Positions 162-41,071 of a stretch of 41,071 bases of DNA are shown here, piece after piece. The stretch spans positions 1-41,071 of IMG/VR virus record IMGVR_UViG_3300048848_000111; one strand, given 5' to 3'. The stretch is from a virus. Taxonomy: Duplodnaviria; Caudoviricetes. The stretch's first letter is position 1; every line of letters starts with the position of its first letter. The position numbers were made by a program, and so were the translations under genes. The notes under the pieces were generated by a model, which saw only the letters and a list, made by a program, of their open reading frames with translations, had not been told where the DNA came from and searched no databases.

Positions 162-201
162 GGGCCGCCTCCGGGAATCGAACCCGGGACCTATTCATTA
201 C
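162..201. repeat. Left att core (displaced 3' half of host tRNA-Thr)
   Basis: gggccgcctccgggaatcgaacccgggacctattcattac, identical to 40945-40984. Confidence 0.97.
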
Positions 202-2309: not shown

Positions 2310-2364
2310 GCTACGCGTCTCGGTGGCCGGCGGCCACGACGCGTCGTGCTCGAGCGCGACGCTA
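2310..2364. repeat. ACGCGT palindrome array, copy A
   Basis: ACGCGT at 2313 and 2339 in the form ACGCGT-N7-GCCGG-N8-ACGCGT, then CTCGAG and a degenerate ACGCTA at 2359. Confidence 0.6.
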
Positions 2365-12523: not shown

Positions 12524-12550
12524 TTAGGAACCTCCCGAGTAGGTGTCGTG

Positions 12551-12627
12551 CAGCGCCGGTACGGCGAGACGCGTTCGGAGTACTCGCGCGACGCGTCGCG
12601 CCCGCCGGTCAGCACGACGCGTGCTCC
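12551..12627. repeat. ACGCGT palindrome array, copy B (intergenic)
   Basis: ACGCGT at 12569, 12591 and 12617, with AGTACT at 12579 and GCCGG between the cores; aligns with 30679-30749. Confidence 0.75.
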
Positions 12628-30460: not shown

Positions 30461-31257
30461 GAGGTGCCTTTCGATAGGAGCGCCCCGGACGCGAACACGT
30501 CCCATGCGCGCTGGACGCCACCCGAGCCCGGGAAGACGTCAGTGAACTCGTCGTGCGGTTGCGCGCCGAGCAGGTCGAAGATCCAGCGGCAGAACACCGC
30601 CGGCTTGGCGCCGACCACCCGGAACGGGTCAGTGCGGCGGGGGCGGGCCGTGTAGATCAGTGAGTCGATGCGTCGTGGAGCGCCGGCGCTCGGCGACGCG
30701 TCAGGAGTACTAGCGCGACGCGTCGTGGTCGCCGGCGAGCGCGACGCGTCCGCGGCCGCGCGTCGCGACGCGTCGCTGTCGGCCGCGAGCTGCTCAGCAC
30801 TACGCGTGCTCGAGTCGACCGCGACGCGTCCTCCCCAGTAGACGACAGGTTCCCAGGCGCTCAGCGGGCCCGCGCTACGCGTCGGCCGGTCACCCCGGTG
30901 CCAGGCCGCCACGCGTACACCTGGTGGGCACGACGCGAGAATCTCGGGGAGCGCCCGGGCCGAGGTAGAGAGCGCCCAGCCGTCGTACGTCGACAGACTA
31001 CGGATCAGCTCGGGGTGGTCGACCTCGCCCGCGAAGTCAGGGTGGTCGCCGTAGTACCGCTTCGAGAGGCCCGGATACGGCGGGTCGGCGTAGGCGAGGC
31101 GTAGCGACTCACCGTGGCCACGCGCGACGGGTACGCCGACACCCGACACGAACCGGTGACGCGCCTGGCGGCACCGCACCGAGCAGCAGATCGCGTCAGC
31201 TCGCAGCGTCCCCGGGATGGGGCCACGGCACCACGCGCACGTCTTCGACTCGGCCAT
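30457..31257 (-). CDS. Beta-class amino (N6A/N4C) DNA methyltransferase with an N-terminal Zn finger and an internal repeat array
   Basis: CAWC...CCSVRC finger; motif IV DPPY; C-terminal GAKP...DVFPGSG (motif I); low-complexity DAS/TRR insert between them. Confidence 0.75.
   Translation of the reverse strand: MAESKTCAWCRGPIPGTLRADAICCSVRCRQARHRFVSGVGVPVARGHGESLRLAYADPPYPGLSKRYYGDHPDFAGEVDHPELIRSLSTYDGWALSTSARALPEILASCPPGVRVAAWHRGDRPTRSAGPLSAWEPVVYWGGRVAVDSSTRSAEQLAADSDASRRAAADASRSPATTTRRASTPDASPSAGAPRRIDSLIYTARPRRTDPFRVVGAKPAVFCRWIFDLLGAQPHDEFTDVFPGSGGVQRAWDVFASGALLSKGTS
30666..30830. repeat. ACGCGT palindrome array, copy C (inside the methyltransferase gene)
   Basis: ACGCGT at 30696, 30718, 30744, 30768, 30802 and 30824; ATGCGT at 30668; outliers at 30877 and 30911. 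Confidence 0.85.
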
Positions 31258-33281: not shown

Positions 33282-34234
33282 CAGCTCACTCCTCCCCGGG
33301 ATCGTGCTCGAGGCCCAGGGCTTCGGAGTCGATCAGGTCTTGCATCCAGCGCTCGTGCTTCAGCCGGGCGGTGCGGCAGGCCCAGCAGTTCTTCGTGGTG
33401 CCGTTCGGCTGGTGCTCGGCGCAGACCGAGGGATTCGCGAGGAGGTCGCGAGCGGTTCCCTCTCCCGACCCCGCCCCTTCCCCCCGACCGCCCGCTCCCG
33501 CGCGCGCTCCCCTCCCCTCTACCGCGAGCGTGTCGCGCGGGACTCGCGAGGCATTCGCGAGCGAATCGCGAGGCGGCGGGGGAGGGATGCTCGAGTCGGT
33601 CGGCTTGTCCACCCGCTGCCACCCCGGCCAGTCCACGACCGAGTAATAGATCCGGTCGCCGGCGTCGTACAGCTGGATGTATCCCTTGTCGTCGAGGATC
33701 ACCAGGTGCTCCTCGATCGCCGCCTTCGTCACCGACTCCTCGAGCGGCCACAGCGCCGACACCAGCAGCACCGGGTTCGCTGACTCGCACCCGAAGTCGT
33801 CGGCGTACATCATCAGGCCGAGGAAGCTCATCCGCACGGGGAGCGGGAGCAGCAGAAAGCTCTCCTCCTGGAAGAACCTCGGCTTCACTGTTCGGTTTCG
33901 GCTGATTGCCATTGCGCGCTATACCTCTGCAAATCGTTCGGATGGCCCTGTCGAGATCGGCTCTGCTCACTCGGAAGCACTCGGTGAAGCCCCGGCCGCC
34001 GGGAAGGATGCTCATCGACTCCACAGCCGAGGCGAAGGCCCGCTCGAAGCTGCCGCCCACTTCGGCGAGCGCCGCTCTCTCGTAGGTGGCGGGGGTGTCG
34101 CGGAGGAGTGCGACGACGCGGCCACCGGTGGCGGTGAGGTTCATGACGCGGTGCATGCGCCAGGCGCGGCCGACCTTGAGGATGCCGCGGTCGGGCCAGT
34201 AGATGGCGTAGAGCATTGCTGTCTTTGGGATCAT
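33281..34234 (-). CDS. GIY-YIG/T5orf172-like protein; its frame stays open across the whole replication gene
   Basis: LYAIY...ILKVG...R...E...GFTECF in the first ~110 aa; ATGA-coupled start; the C-terminal 200 aa are shadow-like. Confidence 0.55.
   Translation of the reverse strand: MIPKTAMLYAIYWPDRGILKVGRAWRMHRVMNLTATGGRVVALLRDTPATYERAALAEVGGSFERAFASAVESMSILPGGRGFTECFRVSRADLDRAIRTICRGIARNGNQPKPNSEAEVLPGGELSAAPAPRADELPRPDDVRRRLRVRVSEPGAAGVGAVAARGVGDEGGDRGAPGDPRRQGIHPAVRRRRPDLLLGRGLAGVAAGGQADRLEHPSPAASRFARECLASPARHARGRGEGSARGSGRSGGRGGVGRGNRSRPPRESLGLRRAPAERHHEELLGLPHRPAEARALDARPDRLRSPGPRARSRGGVS
33286..33912 (-). CDS. Phage replication initiator-like protein with a C-terminal CHCC Zn motif
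   Basis: R.RTVKP.FF...F.GL..YADD.G...W..WQRVDKP N-terminal domain; VCAEHQPNGTTKNCWAC. Confidence 0.75.
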   Translation of the reverse strand: MAISRNRTVKPRFFQEESFLLLPLPVRMSFLGLMMYADDFGCESANPVLLVSALWPLEESVTKAAIEEHLVILDDKGYIQLYDAGDRIYYSVVDWPGWQRVDKPTDSSIPPPPPRDSLANASRVPRDTLAVEGRGARAGAGGRGEGAGSGEGTARDLLANPSVCAEHQPNGTTKNCWACRTARLKHERWMQDLIDSEALGLEHDPGEE

Positions 34235-38086: not shown

Positions 38087-38253
38087 CGGGTCACCCCGCG
38101 CTTCATCATGATGATCAGCACTGCGACCAGGGCGGCCACGACGAGGAGGGCAGGCCACACGAGGTCGACCATCGCCGGGGCGAGCATCCAGAGCACCACG
38201 AGCGCGACGGCGACCAGCAGCGCGAACAGGGCTTGAGCGATTCGGCGGATCAT
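38083..38253 (-). CDS. Small two-TM membrane protein (56 aa)
   Basis: GGAGG RBS; ATGA overlap; almost entirely hydrophobic. Confidence 0.7.
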   Translation of the reverse strand: MIRRIAQALFALLVAVALVVLWMLAPAMVDLVWPALLVVAALVAVLIIMMKRGVTR

Positions 38254-38564
38254 GCTGCCGTCCTCCGCGTTTGGGCGTACATGGCGGCGAGTTGCACCTG
38301 CTGCTCGAGGTAGAGGCAGAGCGCGGCGGCGGCGTCGTTCGTCGCGCCGATGTCCGCGAGAGCGTTGCGGGGCACGAGCTTCTCGCCGCGCCACTGCACG
38401 GGGGAGTCGTACGCCTTCAGCATTTCCACGAGCGAGTCATTCGGAAGCGTCGCGGCGACCAGGTCGCCGGCTACGAACCACTCGGTGCCGTCGATGGTGA
38501 CGCGGCGTACGTCCTTTCCGGCGTGGCGTTCGACGGCGGTCAGCTTGCAGTTGAGGTTCGTCAC
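38250..38564 (-). CDS. BRO-N domain protein (antirepressor-like, short)
   Basis: VRRVTIDGTEWFVAGDL motif; GGAGG RBS; GTGA overlap. Confidence 0.7.
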   Translation of the reverse strand: MTNLNCKLTAVERHAGKDVRRVTIDGTEWFVAGDLVAATLPNDSLVEMLKAYDSPVQWRGEKLVPRNALADIGATNDAAAALCLYLEQQVQLAAMYAQTRRTAA

Positions 38565-38959
38565 AGCGTCACACCTCCCCGGAAGGTGTCGAGTGCCCGC
38601 TCGGTGGCGGACTCGGCGAGCGTGCGAGGGGTGGGGACCGAGGAGGCCGAGCCAGACTCGCGCAACGAGTGATCGACCTCCCCGGGATTCGAGGCGTCCT
38701 CGCCGAGCTGCCGGAGCTGCGTGACGAGGTCGCTCTGCAGAACCCGCTCGAGCGCGTCCGCCGACCGGGTCGAATAGAGGCCGATCTCCGACTGATAGAT
38801 CGACGCGAACGGCTCGTCTCCAGCGAGACGGGCGGTGCGCAGCCGGTTCAGCGCACCGGCGAGGTTCTTGAGCGCGATCGCCGCGTCGTCGAGAGGCTGA
38901 GTCGCAGTCCACTGGGACGGGTTGCCGGGCGCGGGCGGGCGGGGGCGGGGGTAGGTCAT
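38561..38959 (-). CDS. Hypothetical protein (MTYPRPRPPAP...)
   Basis: ATGA / GTGA coupling. Confidence 0.65.
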   Translation of the reverse strand: MTYPRPRPPAPGNPSQWTATQPLDDAAIALKNLAGALNRLRTARLAGDEPFASIYQSEIGLYSTRSADALERVLQSDLVTQLRQLGEDASNPGEVDHSLRESGSASSVPTPRTLAESATERALDTFRGGVTL

Positions 38960-39351
38960 CGTGCACCGCCGATCCCGGCCGGAACGGGGCAGGTCGGCTC
39001 GCCGTAGTGGACGTCGAAGCCGTGGACCTGCACCCATGCCGGCGCGGCGGGGAGTGTGATGGTCCATGTCGTCGCGCCACGGCCCGGGCCGGTGCCGTAG
39101 TTCGTGCCGAACGACACCGAGCCGCCGTTGGCGAAGTGGATGTTCGCCTCGTAGATGTCAGGGGCCGTGCGGTACTTGATGACGATCGTCGAGCCGATGA
39201 TCGTGAAGACACCAGCGCGGGGGTCCGCGCACGTCACGGCCAGCTGCGGGTCAGTCGACGCAGCAGCGGCCGGGGCCGCCACCGCGAGGGCGATGACCGG
39301 GATGCTCCACGCGGCGCCGAGCACGGCGCGGCGAGCGACAGGGGCGCTCAC
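38956..39351 (-). CDS. Secreted protein with a twin-arginine-like signal peptide
   Basis: ARRAVLGAAWSIPVIALAVAAPAAAAS; GTGA overlap with the upstream stop. Confidence 0.75.
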   Translation of the reverse strand: MSAPVARRAVLGAAWSIPVIALAVAAPAAAASTDPQLAVTCADPRAGVFTIIGSTIVIKYRTAPDIYEANIHFANGGSVSFGTNYGTGPGRGATTWTITLPAAPAWVQVHGFDVHYGEPTCPVPAGIGGAR

Positions 39352-40325
39352 GAGCGTGCCCAGGCTTCGAAGCGGCTGCGAGCCTCGGCACACGCCCGGC
39401 AAGCGAAGACCGTGCCGTGTGGCTGGTGCACGGCGCAATAGCGCGAGGCCGGGAAGGGCGGCAGCGAACCGAAGCTGCCGCCCTCCTCCACCACTGACGG
39501 AGAAGTGGTGTCAGTGGCTCCCCCTACGATTCGTCCCGAGACGTCAGTGTGTCCAGCACCGGCGCTCCGAACCGAAGGAGAAGTATCAGCATGAGTGCTG
39601 CCGACGACATCAACGCCATCCGCTCGCGACTGCAGCTCGAGCAGGGCGCGACCGACAGCGCCAACGGACTTAGCGAGAACCCGCTCGACAAAGAAATCGG
39701 CGCCATCTGGGAGGCGCTCGACGTTCTCGCTCGCAAGATCGACCAGCTGCCGGCCGAGGCGTCCAAGAAGGCCATTGAGGACATCAACTTCCAGGCCAGG
39801 GTCGCCGGGTTCTGAAACGGGGAGGGGTGGCAGCGACCCGAAGCTGCCACCCTCTCCCACCACCGACGCGGAAGTGGTGTCGGTGGTCCCCTCTACGATT
39901 CGTTCTGAGACAACGCCGGTTGCAGCCAGCGCGCTCGAATCAGCAGAGGAAGTATCGCTTTGGCCAAGAAGACCCTGCACTACGCCGGTCAGCAGTTCAT
40001 CATCAAGCAGGATGCCGACCTGTCCACCATCACGAAGTCGATTGAGGATCAACTCGAGGGCAAGCCCCAGGGCTTCGTAACGCTCACCATCGAGCGTGGC
40101 GAAGTCGTGCTCTGGATGTCCAGTGGCACCCCCCTCGCCATCGAGCACAAGGAGCCGGGGCAGGTTCACGTCTTTCAGTGACCGGAGCACCGAGTCGAGG
40201 GCACTGAAGCCCATCACCTTTGCCACGGCGCCGAGCACGCTCGCAGCTTCCTCGCGGTCTTCGAAGACCCAGCTGCGACGCTCACCGCTGGATGTCGTAC
40301 CGCTGATCTCGATGCCGCGAGTCAC
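39348..40325 (-). CDS. 325-aa early ORF spanning two antisense genes, with a C-terminal CHCC Zn motif
   Basis: GTGA-coupled to cro upstream and to the 39351 gene downstream; C-terminus similar to that of the replication protein. Confidence 0.55.
   Translation of the reverse strand: MTRGIEISGTTSSGERRSWVFEDREEAASVLGAVAKVMGFSALDSVLRSLKDVNLPRLLVLDGEGGATGHPEHDFATLDGERYEALGLALELILNRLRDGGQVGILLDDELLTGVVQGLLGQSDTSSADSSALAATGVVSERIVEGTTDTTSASVVGEGGSFGSLPPLPVSEPGDPGLEVDVLNGLLGRLGRQLVDLASENVERLPDGADFFVERVLAKSVGAVGRALLELQSRADGVDVVGSTHADTSPSVRSAGAGHTDVSGRIVGGATDTTSPSVVEEGGSFGSLPPFPASRYCAVHQPHGTVFACRACAEARSRFEAWARS
39451..39590. repeat. Structured 140-bp cassette leader, copy 1
   Basis: Hairpins at 39456-39483 and 39491-39517, TACGAT at 39525, GAAGTATC before the start codon; aligns without gaps to 39820-39959. 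Confidence 0.88.
39591..39815 (+). CDS. Small helical hypothetical protein (74 aa, MSAADDINAIRSR...)
   Basis: AAGGAG RBS, upstream TACGAT -10 box, normal GC3 bias. Confidence 0.75.
   Translation: MSAADDINAIRSRLQLEQGATDSANGLSENPLDKEIGAIWEALDVLARKIDQLPAEASKKAIEDINFQARVAGF
39820..39959. repeat. Structured 140-bp cassette leader, copy 2
   Basis: Hairpins at 39825-39852 and 39860-39886, TACGAT at 39894; offset exactly 369 bp from copy 1. Confidence 0.88.
39960..40181 (+). CDS. Small hypothetical protein (73 aa, MAKKTLHYAGQQ...)
   Basis: GAGGA RBS; TTG start at the same repeat position as ATG 39591. Confidence 0.75.
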   Translation: MAKKTLHYAGQQFIIKQDADLSTITKSIEDQLEGKPQGFVTLTIERGEVVLWMSSGTPLAIEHKEPGQVHVFQ

Positions 40326-40516
40326 TCTGCGTCACCACCCTCGGCGAGCGCCTCGACATCTGGACGGTCGAAGAGGTAGGAGCCGCGCAGCCCTGGCAGC
40401 TTCATTGCTGGCTTCAGGGCGCCGCTCTCAACTCGGCGGATGGTCTTACGAACGCCCTCACCGAGGATGTCGGACGCTTCCTTGGTCGTTATCAGCTCTG
40501 GGTTTGATTTGGACAT
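40322..40516 (-). CDS. Cro/excisionase-like HTH protein
   Basis: LITTKEASDILG...RRVESGALKP...YLFDRPDVEAL (HTH_17-like); divergent from the repressor. Confidence 0.85.
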   Translation of the reverse strand: MSKSNPELITTKEASDILGEGVRKTIRRVESGALKPAMKLPGLRGSYLFDRPDVEALAEGGDAE

Positions 40517-40552
40517 ACGTCATAGTTACGCACACGCTTGGGCATATGTCAA
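40517..40552 (-). promoter_or_regulatory. Early lytic promoter, probably leaderless
   Basis: TTGACA (40552-40547)-N18-TAACTA (40528-40523)-N6-ATG; the -10 box is imperfect. Confidence 0.7.
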
Positions 40553-40632
40553 ACATGCGCGCCCCCCACTTTTGGGCGCGTGATTCACTTCGTGCCCACG
40601 ACTAACCTCGGGCACATTCACGAATCCAACGT

Positions 40633-40668
40633 TTGACAAATTCAGCGCATGCGTCGTAGGTTGGACGC
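40633..40668 (+). promoter_or_regulatory. Repressor promoter, probably leaderless
   Basis: TTGACA-N18-TAGGTT-N6-ATG; the -10 box is flanked by the inverted repeat catgcgtc/gacgcatg (40648-40671). Confidence 0.8.
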
Positions 40669-41007
40669 ATGAGCATTCAGCCTGTTGACCGTCGCCGACC
40701 GCAGTTCGGCCTAACGCACCGACTTGTTCTCGCGCGCGAAGTCGCCGGGCTCGAGCAGGTCGACCTCGCCAACGCCCTCGGCGTGGGCCGCTCCACCATC
40801 AGCAATTACGAGCGAGGGATCGGCAAACGGCCGATCAATAAGCTGCTCCTGAACGCGTGGGCTGTGGCCTGCGATGTGGATGTGGAGTGGCTGAAGACTG
40901 GCGAAACAGAAGACCCCCACCCGGGTCCGGATGGGGGTATTAGCGGGCCGCCTCCGGGAATCGAACCCGGGACCTATTCATTACGAGTGAATCGCTCTGC
41001 CGACTGA
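40669..41007 (+). CDS. XRE-family immunity repressor, prophage form (112 aa)
   Basis: RLVLAREVAGLEQVDLANALGVGRSTISNYERG HTH_3 and VDVEWLKTG motifs; runs through the att core and stops inside the tRNA antisense. Confidence 0.92.
   Translation: MSIQPVDRRRPQFGLTHRLVLAREVAGLEQVDLANALGVGRSTISNYERGIGKRPINKLLLNAWAVACDVDVEWLKTGETEDPHPGPDGGISGPPPGIEPGTYSLRVNRSAD
40903..40938 (-). terminator. Phage-supplied terminator for the reconstituted tRNA, inside the repressor CDS
   Basis: On the minus strand ACCCCCAUCCG-GACC-CGGGUGGGGGU followed by CUUCUGUUUC, 7 nt beyond the tRNA 3' end. Confidence 0.65.
40945..40984. repeat. Right att core
   Basis: Identical to 162-201. Confidence 0.97.
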
Positions 41008-41018
41008 GCTAAGGCGGC
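40946..41018 (-). tRNA. tRNA-Thr(CGT), reconstituted after integration
   Basis: GCCGCCT/AGGCGGC acceptor stem, GCTC/GAGC D stem, ATTCA-CTCGTAA-TGAAT anticodon arm, CCGGG-TTCGATT-CCCGG T arm. Confidence 0.97.
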
Positions 41019-41071
41019 CTGGCCGGCGCACAGCGCGCGGCACAGCAACAAAGCATAGCCGATTCGGGAGG

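What the first reader, a model, noticed from the sequence alone, without database searches (positions are those of the whole stretch)
39451..39959. Twin 140-bp structured leaders with compensatory changes, each heading an unrelated antisense microgene
Seen: 39451-39590 and 39820-39959 align without gaps at offset 369, up to the start codons ATG 39591 and TTG 39960, while the two genes downstream are unrelated. Both stems covary. Stem 1 is gggCggcagc/gctgccGccc versus gggTggcagc/gctgccAccc. Stem 2 is ccacTgac/gtcAgtgg versus ccacCgac/gtcGgtgg. TACGAT (-10-like) and GAAGTATC are invariant. On the minus strand, which is the early lytic transcript, the stem-2 loop can pair with the linker 3' of it (CUUCUCC:GGAGGAG; CUUCCG:UGGGAG). 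The imperfect pairs are G-U on the minus strand but C-A on the plus strand, suggesting an H-type pseudoknot in minus-strand RNA. Inference: an exchangeable gene-cassette array with a dual-function element, acting as a promoter on one strand and a regulatory RNA on the other. The RNA could be a put/nut-like antiterminator, a processing signal or an antisense regulator, downstream of cro.
Basis: partly seen in the sequence, partly recalled or inferred. Interest (0 to 1): 0.87.

Follow-up and report, generated by a model that had tools for sequence, protein, structure and literature searches.

The report
Self-silencing reverse gene cassettes in prophages
Two copies of a 140-base hairpin element, also seen at eleven other prophage loci mostly from Microbacterium, each lie in front of a different small backward-facing gene inside the virus's early genes; the element likely drives that gene during dormancy and, read from the other strand, likely folds into an antisense RNA that shuts it off, while a stop-free reading frame running straight through likely keeps the virus's own early genes translated.

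Summary
The repeat is real: 103 of 140 bases are identical, and all four changes in the two core stems are compensatory. It is not a one-off. Related elements occur at 11 other prophage loci, including the isolated Microbacterium phage Min1, each heading an unrelated small reverse gene; one has no cargo. No Rfam match.

(1) A third, long stem pairs the antisense of the cargo ribosome-binding site (RBS) with the antisense of the -10 region, with G-U pairs favouring the lytic strand.
(2) The hairpin loops copy the anti-RBS of their own cargo gene (permutation p about 2e-4).
(3) The lytic-strand frame stays open through cargo and element and ends overlapping the next gene's start in 13 of 13 copies, against 2 of 298 control genes with a full bridge.

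The proposed pseudoknot is not conserved. Best reading: a portable accessory-gene cassette that works like P22 sieB/sas, expressed in the lysogen, silenced by the early transcript and inserted without polarity. Expression, direction of control and cargo function are untested. Look-ups of this scan's earlier notes found no report of it.

The parts
39451..39590 (-). Element copy E1: three-stem structure (P3, P2, P1 in 5'-3' order) on the lytic strand; promoter and leader of cargo 1 on the + strand
39820..39959 (-). Element copy E2, same layout
39456..39483 (.). P1 hairpin of E1 (E2: 39825-39852), 8-nt loop, one compensatory pair
39491..39517 (.). P2 hairpin of E1 (E2: 39860-39886); its minus-strand loop repeats 8 nt (E2: 6 nt) of the anti-RBS arm
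39518..39583 (-). P3 of E1 (E2: 39887-39951): outer stem pairs the antisense of the cargo RBS with the antisense of the -10 region; one compensatory and two wobble-consistent changes between copies; inner hairpin
39525..39530 (+). -10-like TACGAT for cargo 1 (E2: 39894-39899); no TTGACA-like -35; promoter activity inferred
39591..39815 (+). Cargo 1, 74 aa, predicted two-helix hairpin, no family
39960..40181 (+). Cargo 2, 73 aa, related to the cargo of L251 (E 4.8e-6 in a 13-protein set), no family
39348..40325 (-). 'Bridge' frame, 325 codons: GTG overlaps the cro stop, runs codon-on-codon through both cargo genes and both elements, and its TGA overlaps the next gene's GTG
40182..40325 (-). 48-codon N-terminal part of the bridge with coding-type codon use (LLR 0.26), no relatives found
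39348..39449 (-). C-terminal part of the bridge: C-x2-H...C-x2-C motif like the end of actinophage replication initiators; also follows the element in L277 and opens the bridge in L253
40322..40516 (-). cro/xis-like HTH_17 gene, first gene of the early operon
40669..41007 (+). Immunity repressor (phrog_2328, HTH_3); its 3' end overlaps the attachment core; same strand as the cargo genes
40945..40984 (.). 40-bp attachment core inside a tRNA gene (40946-41018, minus; anticodon read as CGU, Thr); second copy at 162-201
38956..39351 (-). Next early gene (131 aa), start overlapping the bridge stop

Best explanation
This is a portable two-strand cassette in the early operon of a Microbacterium-type prophage: on one strand it likely serves as promoter and ribosome-binding site for a small backward-facing accessory gene in the lysogen, and on the other it is predicted to fold into a three-stem RNA whose pyrimidine loops copy the complement of that gene's ribosome-binding site and would silence it when the early transcript is made, while a stop-free frame overlapping the flanking genes likely carries ribosomes across the insert. 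Shown by sequence: the family, the stems, the loop-RBS match, the open frame and its overlaps. Inferred: promoter activity, lysogen-specific expression, RNA-RNA pairing, translation of the bridge, and avoidance of polarity (Rho acting on untranslated RNA is textbook knowledge, not tested here). P3 would keep the full anti-RBS segment folded away so that first contact is made by the loops, and may be an RNase III-type processing stem (speculative). What the cargo proteins do is not known; exclusion or a lysis-lysogeny role is a guess from position.
For: Family: a model built only from E1 and E2 found L277 (E 1.1e-5), L263 (0.034) and L251 (0.59) among 72 prophage loci. Motif and structure scans, a second model, a pattern scan and blastn brought the set to 14 copies at 12 loci. 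Min1 orf4 has it unannotated at 77% identity, E 4e-13. Structure: in 10 aligned copies 82.7% of cells pair and 16 cells change on both sides, 0 of 500 shuffles for both measures, above all six slid registers. Strand: P3 folds better on the lytic strand in 10 of 14 copies, with 36 G-U pairs against 11. Loops are 124 of 164 nt pyrimidine. Longest shared word with the own anti-RBS arm averages 6.25 against 5.12 for other arms, p 0.00057. Loop:cognate-RBS duplex averages -11.7 against -9.2 kcal/mol, p 0.00017, while loop:P3 3' arm shows no cognate effect, p 0.65. In the window each loop 2 prefers its own RBS (-11.8 vs -6.1; -8.5 vs -4.9). Frame: cargo start to the conserved GTA codon is 57, 60, 63 or 66 nt in 13 of 13; the frame is open across the cargo in 13 of 13, ends in a start-overlapping TGA before an ORF of 54 aa or more in 13 of 13, and begins at a start overlapping the upstream stop in 12 of 13. 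L253, L320 and Min1 orf4 were found after this pattern was noted and fit it. Control: 2 of 298 other short genes have a full bridge although 156 of 298 have the frame open. The bridge peptide drifts (22 synonymous, 72 non-synonymous changed codons), so openness, not product, is kept. Leaderless reverse genes keep the bridge but lack the element (L242, L260, L239), as expected if the element serves RBS-led mRNAs.
Against: No expression data: the one RNA run holds only 40696-41025, not the element. The cognate RBS ranked first for only 2 of 12 elements, second for 5, and 7th, 8th and 9th for E2, L320 and L272; composition-shuffled loops do as well in 6 of 12 (p>0.05). Elements are related, so the permutation p-values are too small. 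P3 is better on the cargo strand in 4 of 14 copies and P2/P1 show no strand preference (8 against 6); the G-rich lytic strand favours G-U pairs anyway. 'Pairs with a change on both sides' was not above shuffles (62 of 500), the structure was taken from the same sequences, and RNAalifold recovered only 8 pairs from the MAFFT alignment. L284 has the strongest loop-RBS match but no cargo start. The bridge also occurs in 5 of 40 isolated reverse genes without the element, so it is not specific to it. A fully antisense transcript does not obviously need seed loops.
Confidence: 0.5

Rival explanations
1. Control runs the other way. The cargo-strand transcript is the regulator: it pairs with the early mRNA through the loops, stops ribosomes on the bridge frame, and lets the hairpins or Rho end transcription before the antirepressor and replication genes (like P1 c4-icd-ant, P4 CI RNA or IsrK-orf45; the promoter points at cro and the repressor like lambda PRE).
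For: A Bro-N/ANT antirepressor directly follows the bridge in L251 and after Min1 orf8, and Bro-like N-termini follow in L263 and L311 (my reading). L284 keeps the element with no cargo directly behind cro, with coupling kept by a 10-codon ORF. The same base pairs serve either direction.
Against: P1 and P2 have no U-tract and were not among the 4 terminator-like sites found. The bridge persists in leaderless inserts with no hairpins. In the window, L264 and L277 the next gene is not an antirepressor. No C4 or c4-a1b1 match.
Confidence: 0.2
2. A plain promoter plus insulating hairpins (terminator or 3'-end stabiliser); the compensatory changes come from palindrome correction, and the loop-RBS match is a relic of local duplication.
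For: P1 and P2 are near-perfect Watson-Crick palindromes with no strand preference. E2 starts just after the cargo 1 stop. TACGAT about 60 nt before an RBS also occurs at ordinary genes (L356, L364).
Against: P3 is imperfect, long-range and G-U-biased. Different loop words track different RBS words in different lineages. Most members have no upstream same-strand gene to terminate.
Confidence: 0.15
3. A DNA-level site: an attC-like single-strand recombination substrate for cassette exchange, or a protein operator repeated at the RBS and at the -35 position.
For: Cargo exchange at a fixed junction, tandem copies, an empty copy, and good ssDNA folding (-34 to -40 kcal/mol). The repeated word lies at about the -35 position.
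Against: The repeated word sits in hairpin loops, G-U rather than A-C mismatches dominate P3, no matching site flanks the 3' end of cargo 2, and no dedicated recombinase was looked for or seen next to the elements.
Confidence: 0.08
4. One reading: a minus-strand H-type pseudoknot acting as a put/nut-like antiterminator.
For: Loop 2 can pair with the 3' linker in E1 and E2 (about -12 kcal/mol); the position is early, downstream of cro.
Against: The purine linker is missing in L264, L277, L284 and L287, and P1 is missing or fused in others. The linker is also used by the P1 extension. A 0-2 nt connector cannot span an 8-bp stem (general knowledge). The element lies 360-870 nt past cro and varies with the cargo.
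Confidence: 0.07

Closest known systems
P22 sieB / sas antisense RNA
   Same: A phage accessory gene controlled in translation by a cis-antisense RNA pairing with its mRNA (passages of PMC12197685 and PMC7067206). That sieB lies backward in the early PL operon and sas is part of that transcript is recalled, not read.
   Different: Here the module is portable across unrelated cargo, has a conserved three-stem fold with cognate loops, and an open coupled frame crosses it. No second start (Esc-type product) was seen; no sequence likeness was tested or expected.
P1/P7 c4-icd-ant and Gifsy-1 IsrK-orf45-anrP
   Same: Structured RNA ahead of an antirepressor-type gene, and a short ORF whose translation, not sequence, matters through coupling (IsrK passage, PMC12197685; icd coupling recalled).
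   Different: No Rfam match. In those systems RNA and target share a strand; here the cognate match is to an mRNA on the opposite strand, and a whole protein gene is nested antisense in the coupler.
Type I toxin-antitoxin loci with repeated complementarity (par/fst, zor-orz; recalled)
   Same: Direct repeat giving loop-RBS complementarity; tandem copies with cognate preference.
   Different: Cargo proteins are soluble-looking 49-125 aa proteins, not short hydrophobic peptides; toxicity untested; embedded in a lytic operon.
Prophage morons antisense to lytic genes
   Same: Own promoter, reverse orientation (passage in PMC7067206).
   Different: Shared structured leader, and nesting inside a doubly coupled frame.
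Embedded antisense overlapping genes (bioRxiv 10.1101/2020.11.18.388249, search listing and start of abstract only)
   Same: One ORF fully inside another on the opposite strand.
   Different: Here the short gene is the conserved-codon one and the long frame looks like a ribosome conduit with drifting sequence.

Membership tests
Any Rfam 15 family (incl. C4, c4-a1b1, c4-2, IsrK) | Score at or near the gathering threshold | tested here: not met
   window 38500-41071, E<=10: best hit on the element 19.4 bits against a cut-off of 88; 8 loci: only tRNA and msiK, none on the elements
C4/CI-type same-strand antisense immunity RNA | Loops complementary to cognate targets on the same transcript | tested here: inconclusive
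   No cognate preference for the same-strand P3 3' arm (p 0.65); other same-strand sites not searched
C4/CI-type same-strand antisense immunity RNA | Coupled short ORF upstream of an antirepressor | tested here: inconclusive
   Coupled frame in 13 of 13; Bro-N/ANT confirmed by Pfam for L251 and Min1 only; not directly downstream in the window
sieB/sas-type antisense-controlled exclusion gene | Reverse gene inside the early operon, overlapped by the early transcript | tested here: met
   Gene order cro - bridge - next gene; transcription itself inferred
sieB/sas-type antisense-controlled exclusion gene | Exclusion phenotype and antisense control of translation | not testable with these tools
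   PADLOC scan of 15 cargo proteins gave 2 weak hits at E 0.024 only
Type I toxin-antitoxin | Short hydrophobic toxin under 60 aa | tested here: not met
   Window cargos are 74 and 73 aa and charged; helical-hairpin model for cargo 1
Canonical intrinsic terminator | GC hairpin followed by a U-tract | tested here: not met
   P1 and P2 absent from the 4 sites
HK022 put / lambda nut | Antitermination activity; put twin hairpins or boxA/boxB next to the promoter | not testable with these tools
   No Rfam hit; activity needs experiment
Integron attC cassette | Site 3' of each gene and an integron integrase | tested here: not met
   Element is 5' of the cargo; only two copies in the window, none after cargo 2; IntI not specifically searched

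The most novel reading that the evidence does not exclude
A previously undescribed, general plug-in architecture of actinobacterial temperate phages. Accessory genes are inserted backward into translationally coupled lytic operons inside a junk 'ribosome-bridge' ORF, and carry a self-addressed antisense RNA whose loops co-evolve with each gene's RBS. This gives a lysogeny-on, lysis-off switch (or the reverse attenuator) for arbitrary cargo, so the element would flag a new class of small prophage defence or decision proteins.
Probability: 0.35. Interest if true: 0.85.

Novelty: new variant of a known kind. Interest (0 to 1): 0.72.

Why it matters
It adds an uncatalogued structured element to actinobacterial prophages and gives a clean case of fully nested antiparallel reading frames kept for ribosome passage rather than for a protein. 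That would explain how accessory genes enter tightly coupled lytic operons without polarity, and why such regions are annotated on one strand only or in pieces (Min1 orf9 is the tail of a bridge frame). The element is a handle for finding small orphan genes that are likely expressed in lysogens. An isolated phage (Min1) carries it, so each step can be tested directly.

Tried and rejected
Searches that found no homologue: blastn against phages with the window element (1 chance hit); viral patterns (58 loci, none extending beyond hairpin 1; 0 loci); a strict pattern in metagenomes and genomes (0 each); blastn in 401 Microbacteriaceae genomes (17 with short chance hits); model R1 in 151 genomes (3 weak hits, rejected); R1 and R2 on 75 repressor-anchored loci (no member).

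Genome-wide R2 scans scored only 29 candidates per genome. Of 19 loci returned, one was new (L320), one repeated L251, and the rest were host promoters or chance. Later patterns gave 2 members of 14 loci (L311; L313 = L277) and 0 of 57. These blanks show low sensitivity, not rarity.

Cargo function: no relatives in the protein searches (one gave repeat-protein artefacts); Atlas hits under 0.9; Pfam, PHROGs and PADLOC gave nothing named; the cargo 2 model was too poor to search (pLDDT 52); the cargo 1 fold search had no match at E<=0.001.

The 325-codon frame as a functional protein was rejected. The X2 RNA run does not cover the element, which proves nothing. REP-like and attC-like readings were considered and dropped. 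Left out of the loop tests: L253 and Min1 orf8, which have no P2/P1 loops. Paper searches found no description; the original Min1 paper and subscription literature were not available.

Full report
Setting. The window is an actinobacterial prophage. A 40-bp core occurs at 162-201 and 40945-40984, inside a tRNA gene. An integrase lies at 995-1888 and a repressor at 40669-41007 whose 3' end overlaps the core. That layout matches integration-dependent immunity (mechanism recalled; the term appears in listings). A cro/xis-like gene (40322-40516, minus) opens the early operon.

Observation. The two 140-nt copies are 103/140 identical without gaps. All 4 changes in the 18 core pairs of P1 and P2 are partner-matched (p 4.8e-4 by placement), and both copies fold far better than shuffles. 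The cargo genes are real by codon use on + and unrelated. Rfam has no match.

A third stem. On the minus strand the antisense of the cargo RBS pairs with the antisense of the -10 region over about 15 bp (P3). Between E1 and E2 it shows one C-G to U-A change and two wobble-consistent changes; it is 8-10 kcal/mol more stable on the minus strand.

The family. Direct searches failed (see Tried and rejected). I anchored on the phage's replication initiator instead: 14 viral loci and 58 regions, most taken from the 53 of 401 genomes with a hit and a few. Model R1, built from E1 and E2 alone, found L277 (E 1.1e-5), L263 (0.034) and L251 (0.59). Structure and motif scans added L264, L284, L287 and L272, a pattern scan L311, model R2 L253 and L320, and blastn the isolated phage Min1. 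In Min1 the element heads reverse orf4 and a divergent copy heads orf8. Total: 14 copies at 12 loci, being 8 of 72 initiator-anchored loci and 0 of 75 repressor-anchored loci. The layout is anti-start, anti-RBS arm, inner hairpin, CGTAG plus purines, then one or two strong hairpins with pyrimidine loops (L253 and Min1 orf8 lack these). Cargo falls into helical proteins, a beta-rich group (window cargo 2, L251, L311, L320) and singletons; L284 has none. Covariation on 10 aligned copies: 82.7% of cells paired and 16 double changes (0 of 500 shuffles), but pairs-with-double-change was not significant (62 of 500) and the structure came from these sequences. RNAalifold alone found only 8 pairs on the poorly registered alignment. 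P3 favours the lytic strand in 10 of 14 copies (36 against 11 G-U pairs); P2/P1 favour neither.

Loops address their own cargo. In 12 copies with strong loops (L253 and Min1 orf8 left out), the loop shares a longer word with its own anti-RBS arm than with others (6.25 against 5.12, p 0.00057). It pairs better with its own cargo RBS (-11.7 against -9.2 kcal/mol, p 0.00017) but not with its own P3 3' arm (p 0.65). The effect is uneven: first rank in 2 of 12, second in 5, poor for E2, L320 and L272, and relatedness inflates the significance.

The bridge frame. In the window a 325-codon minus frame starts at a GTG overlapping the cro stop, passes codon-on-codon through both cargo genes and both elements, and stops on a TGA overlapping the next start. 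Antisense openness alone is common at this GC content (156 of 298 control genes). But in 13 of 13 cargo-bearing copies the cargo start lies 57, 60, 63 or 66 nt from the GTA codon, the frame crosses the whole cargo, and it ends in a start-overlapping TGA before an ORF of 54 aa or more (coding score above 0 in 11 of 13). In 12 of 13 it begins at a start overlapping the upstream stop; L311 has its own start. The other two frames end at such an overlap in 2 of 26 cases, and 0 of 9 non-member hits examined in the same call had a full bridge. Among short genes of the same loci, 7 of 8 with a -10 and P3 (all already known members) and 2 of 298 others have a full bridge. Among 45 isolated reverse genes, 4 of 5 with the element-like signal and 5 of 40 without have it; three of the five look leaderless, with a TANNNT hexamer 7-9 nt before ATG and no hairpins. 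Min1 orf6 has neither element nor bridge, and the gene after it has its own RBS. Changes within the element fall 43/50/60 on codon positions 1/2/3, with 22 synonymous and 72 non-synonymous codons over 8 pairs of related copies, so the peptide is not conserved. The bridge is therefore a general tolerance rule for reverse inserts, and the structured element goes with RBS-led ones.

Mechanism. Most likely (0.5): the -10 and RBS express the cargo in the lysogen. On induction the early transcript crosses the cassette, folds, and its loops seed pairing with the cargo RBS and silence it, while ribosomes on the bridge keep the next gene coupled. The reverse direction, cargo RNA attenuating the lytic operon before an antirepressor, uses the same pairs (0.2). 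It is favoured by Bro-N/ANT genes downstream in L251 and Min1 and by the empty copy L284, and disfavoured by the lack of U-tracts. Plain insulator (0.15), DNA site (0.08) and put-like pseudoknot (0.07) follow. No expression evidence exists: an RNA run holds the repressor-tRNA stretch only. Cargo function is unknown.

Known systems. It works most like P22 sieB/sas and, for coupling, like IsrK-orf45 (passages read in PMC12197685 and PMC7067206; operon geometry of sas, P1 icd coupling, P4 CI, lambda PRE and type I TA details are recalled). It is not a member of any Rfam family. Passages of PMC7302621 on Min1 mention no such element (supplements not read). Seven paper searches found no description, within an open-access library that lacks the original Min1 paper. 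Of three completed look-ups for this element in the scan's notes by sequence or words none returned anything; one further word search returned an E. coli C4/IsrK note.

Verdict. Real, a family, apparently undescribed, with a well-supported anatomy and an untested mechanism: new variant of a known kind, interest 0.72.

Noticed in passing
window 162-201, 40945-40984, 40669-41007: Attachment core inside a tRNA gene and overlapping the repressor's 3' end (integration-dependent immunity layout).
   Followed up: partly
window 40696-41025 (run X2): A soil metatranscriptome contig from another study matches the repressor-tRNA stretch with 0 differences; may be lysogen repressor RNA or DNA carry-over.
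   Followed up: partly
window 33286-33912 and 39348-39449: The replication initiator ends in the same C-x2-H...C-x2-C motif as the bridge frame and has a GTAGAGGGG word in the same frame as the element's GTA codon; a shared origin is possible.
   Followed up: partly
window 2313-2350, 12545-12622, 30672-30750: Three related palindrome-rich repeats (78 nt at 79% between two of them; D11, I1, I2, I4), far apart.
   Followed up: no
L284:5255-5404: Element directly behind cro with no cargo start; coupling appears kept by a 10-codon mini ORF; its promoter would make RNA antisense to cro.
   Followed up: partly
L242:8699-8905, L260:10979-11236, L239:6656-7312: Leaderless-looking reverse genes that keep the bridge frame; L242 and L260 are related to each other and begin like the beta-rich cargo group.
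   Followed up: partly
L390:2230-3147 (Min1): orf5 and orf7 are near-duplicates flanking reverse orf6, suggesting insertion with duplication; annotated orf9 is the tail of a bridge frame.
   Followed up: partly
L106-L113: Several 12-18 kb elements with the same repressor-cro pair, followed directly by a replication-type gene in L108, L110 and L111; possibly phage satellites of Microbacteriaceae.
   Followed up: no
L152, L154, L160 downstream of cro: About 600 nt of conserved, apparently non-coding sequence after cro in three related viral contigs; possible structured RNA.
   Followed up: no
window 38253-38566: Short gene with a Bro-N-like N-terminus (weak PHROG antirepressor hits) three genes downstream of the element.
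   Followed up: no
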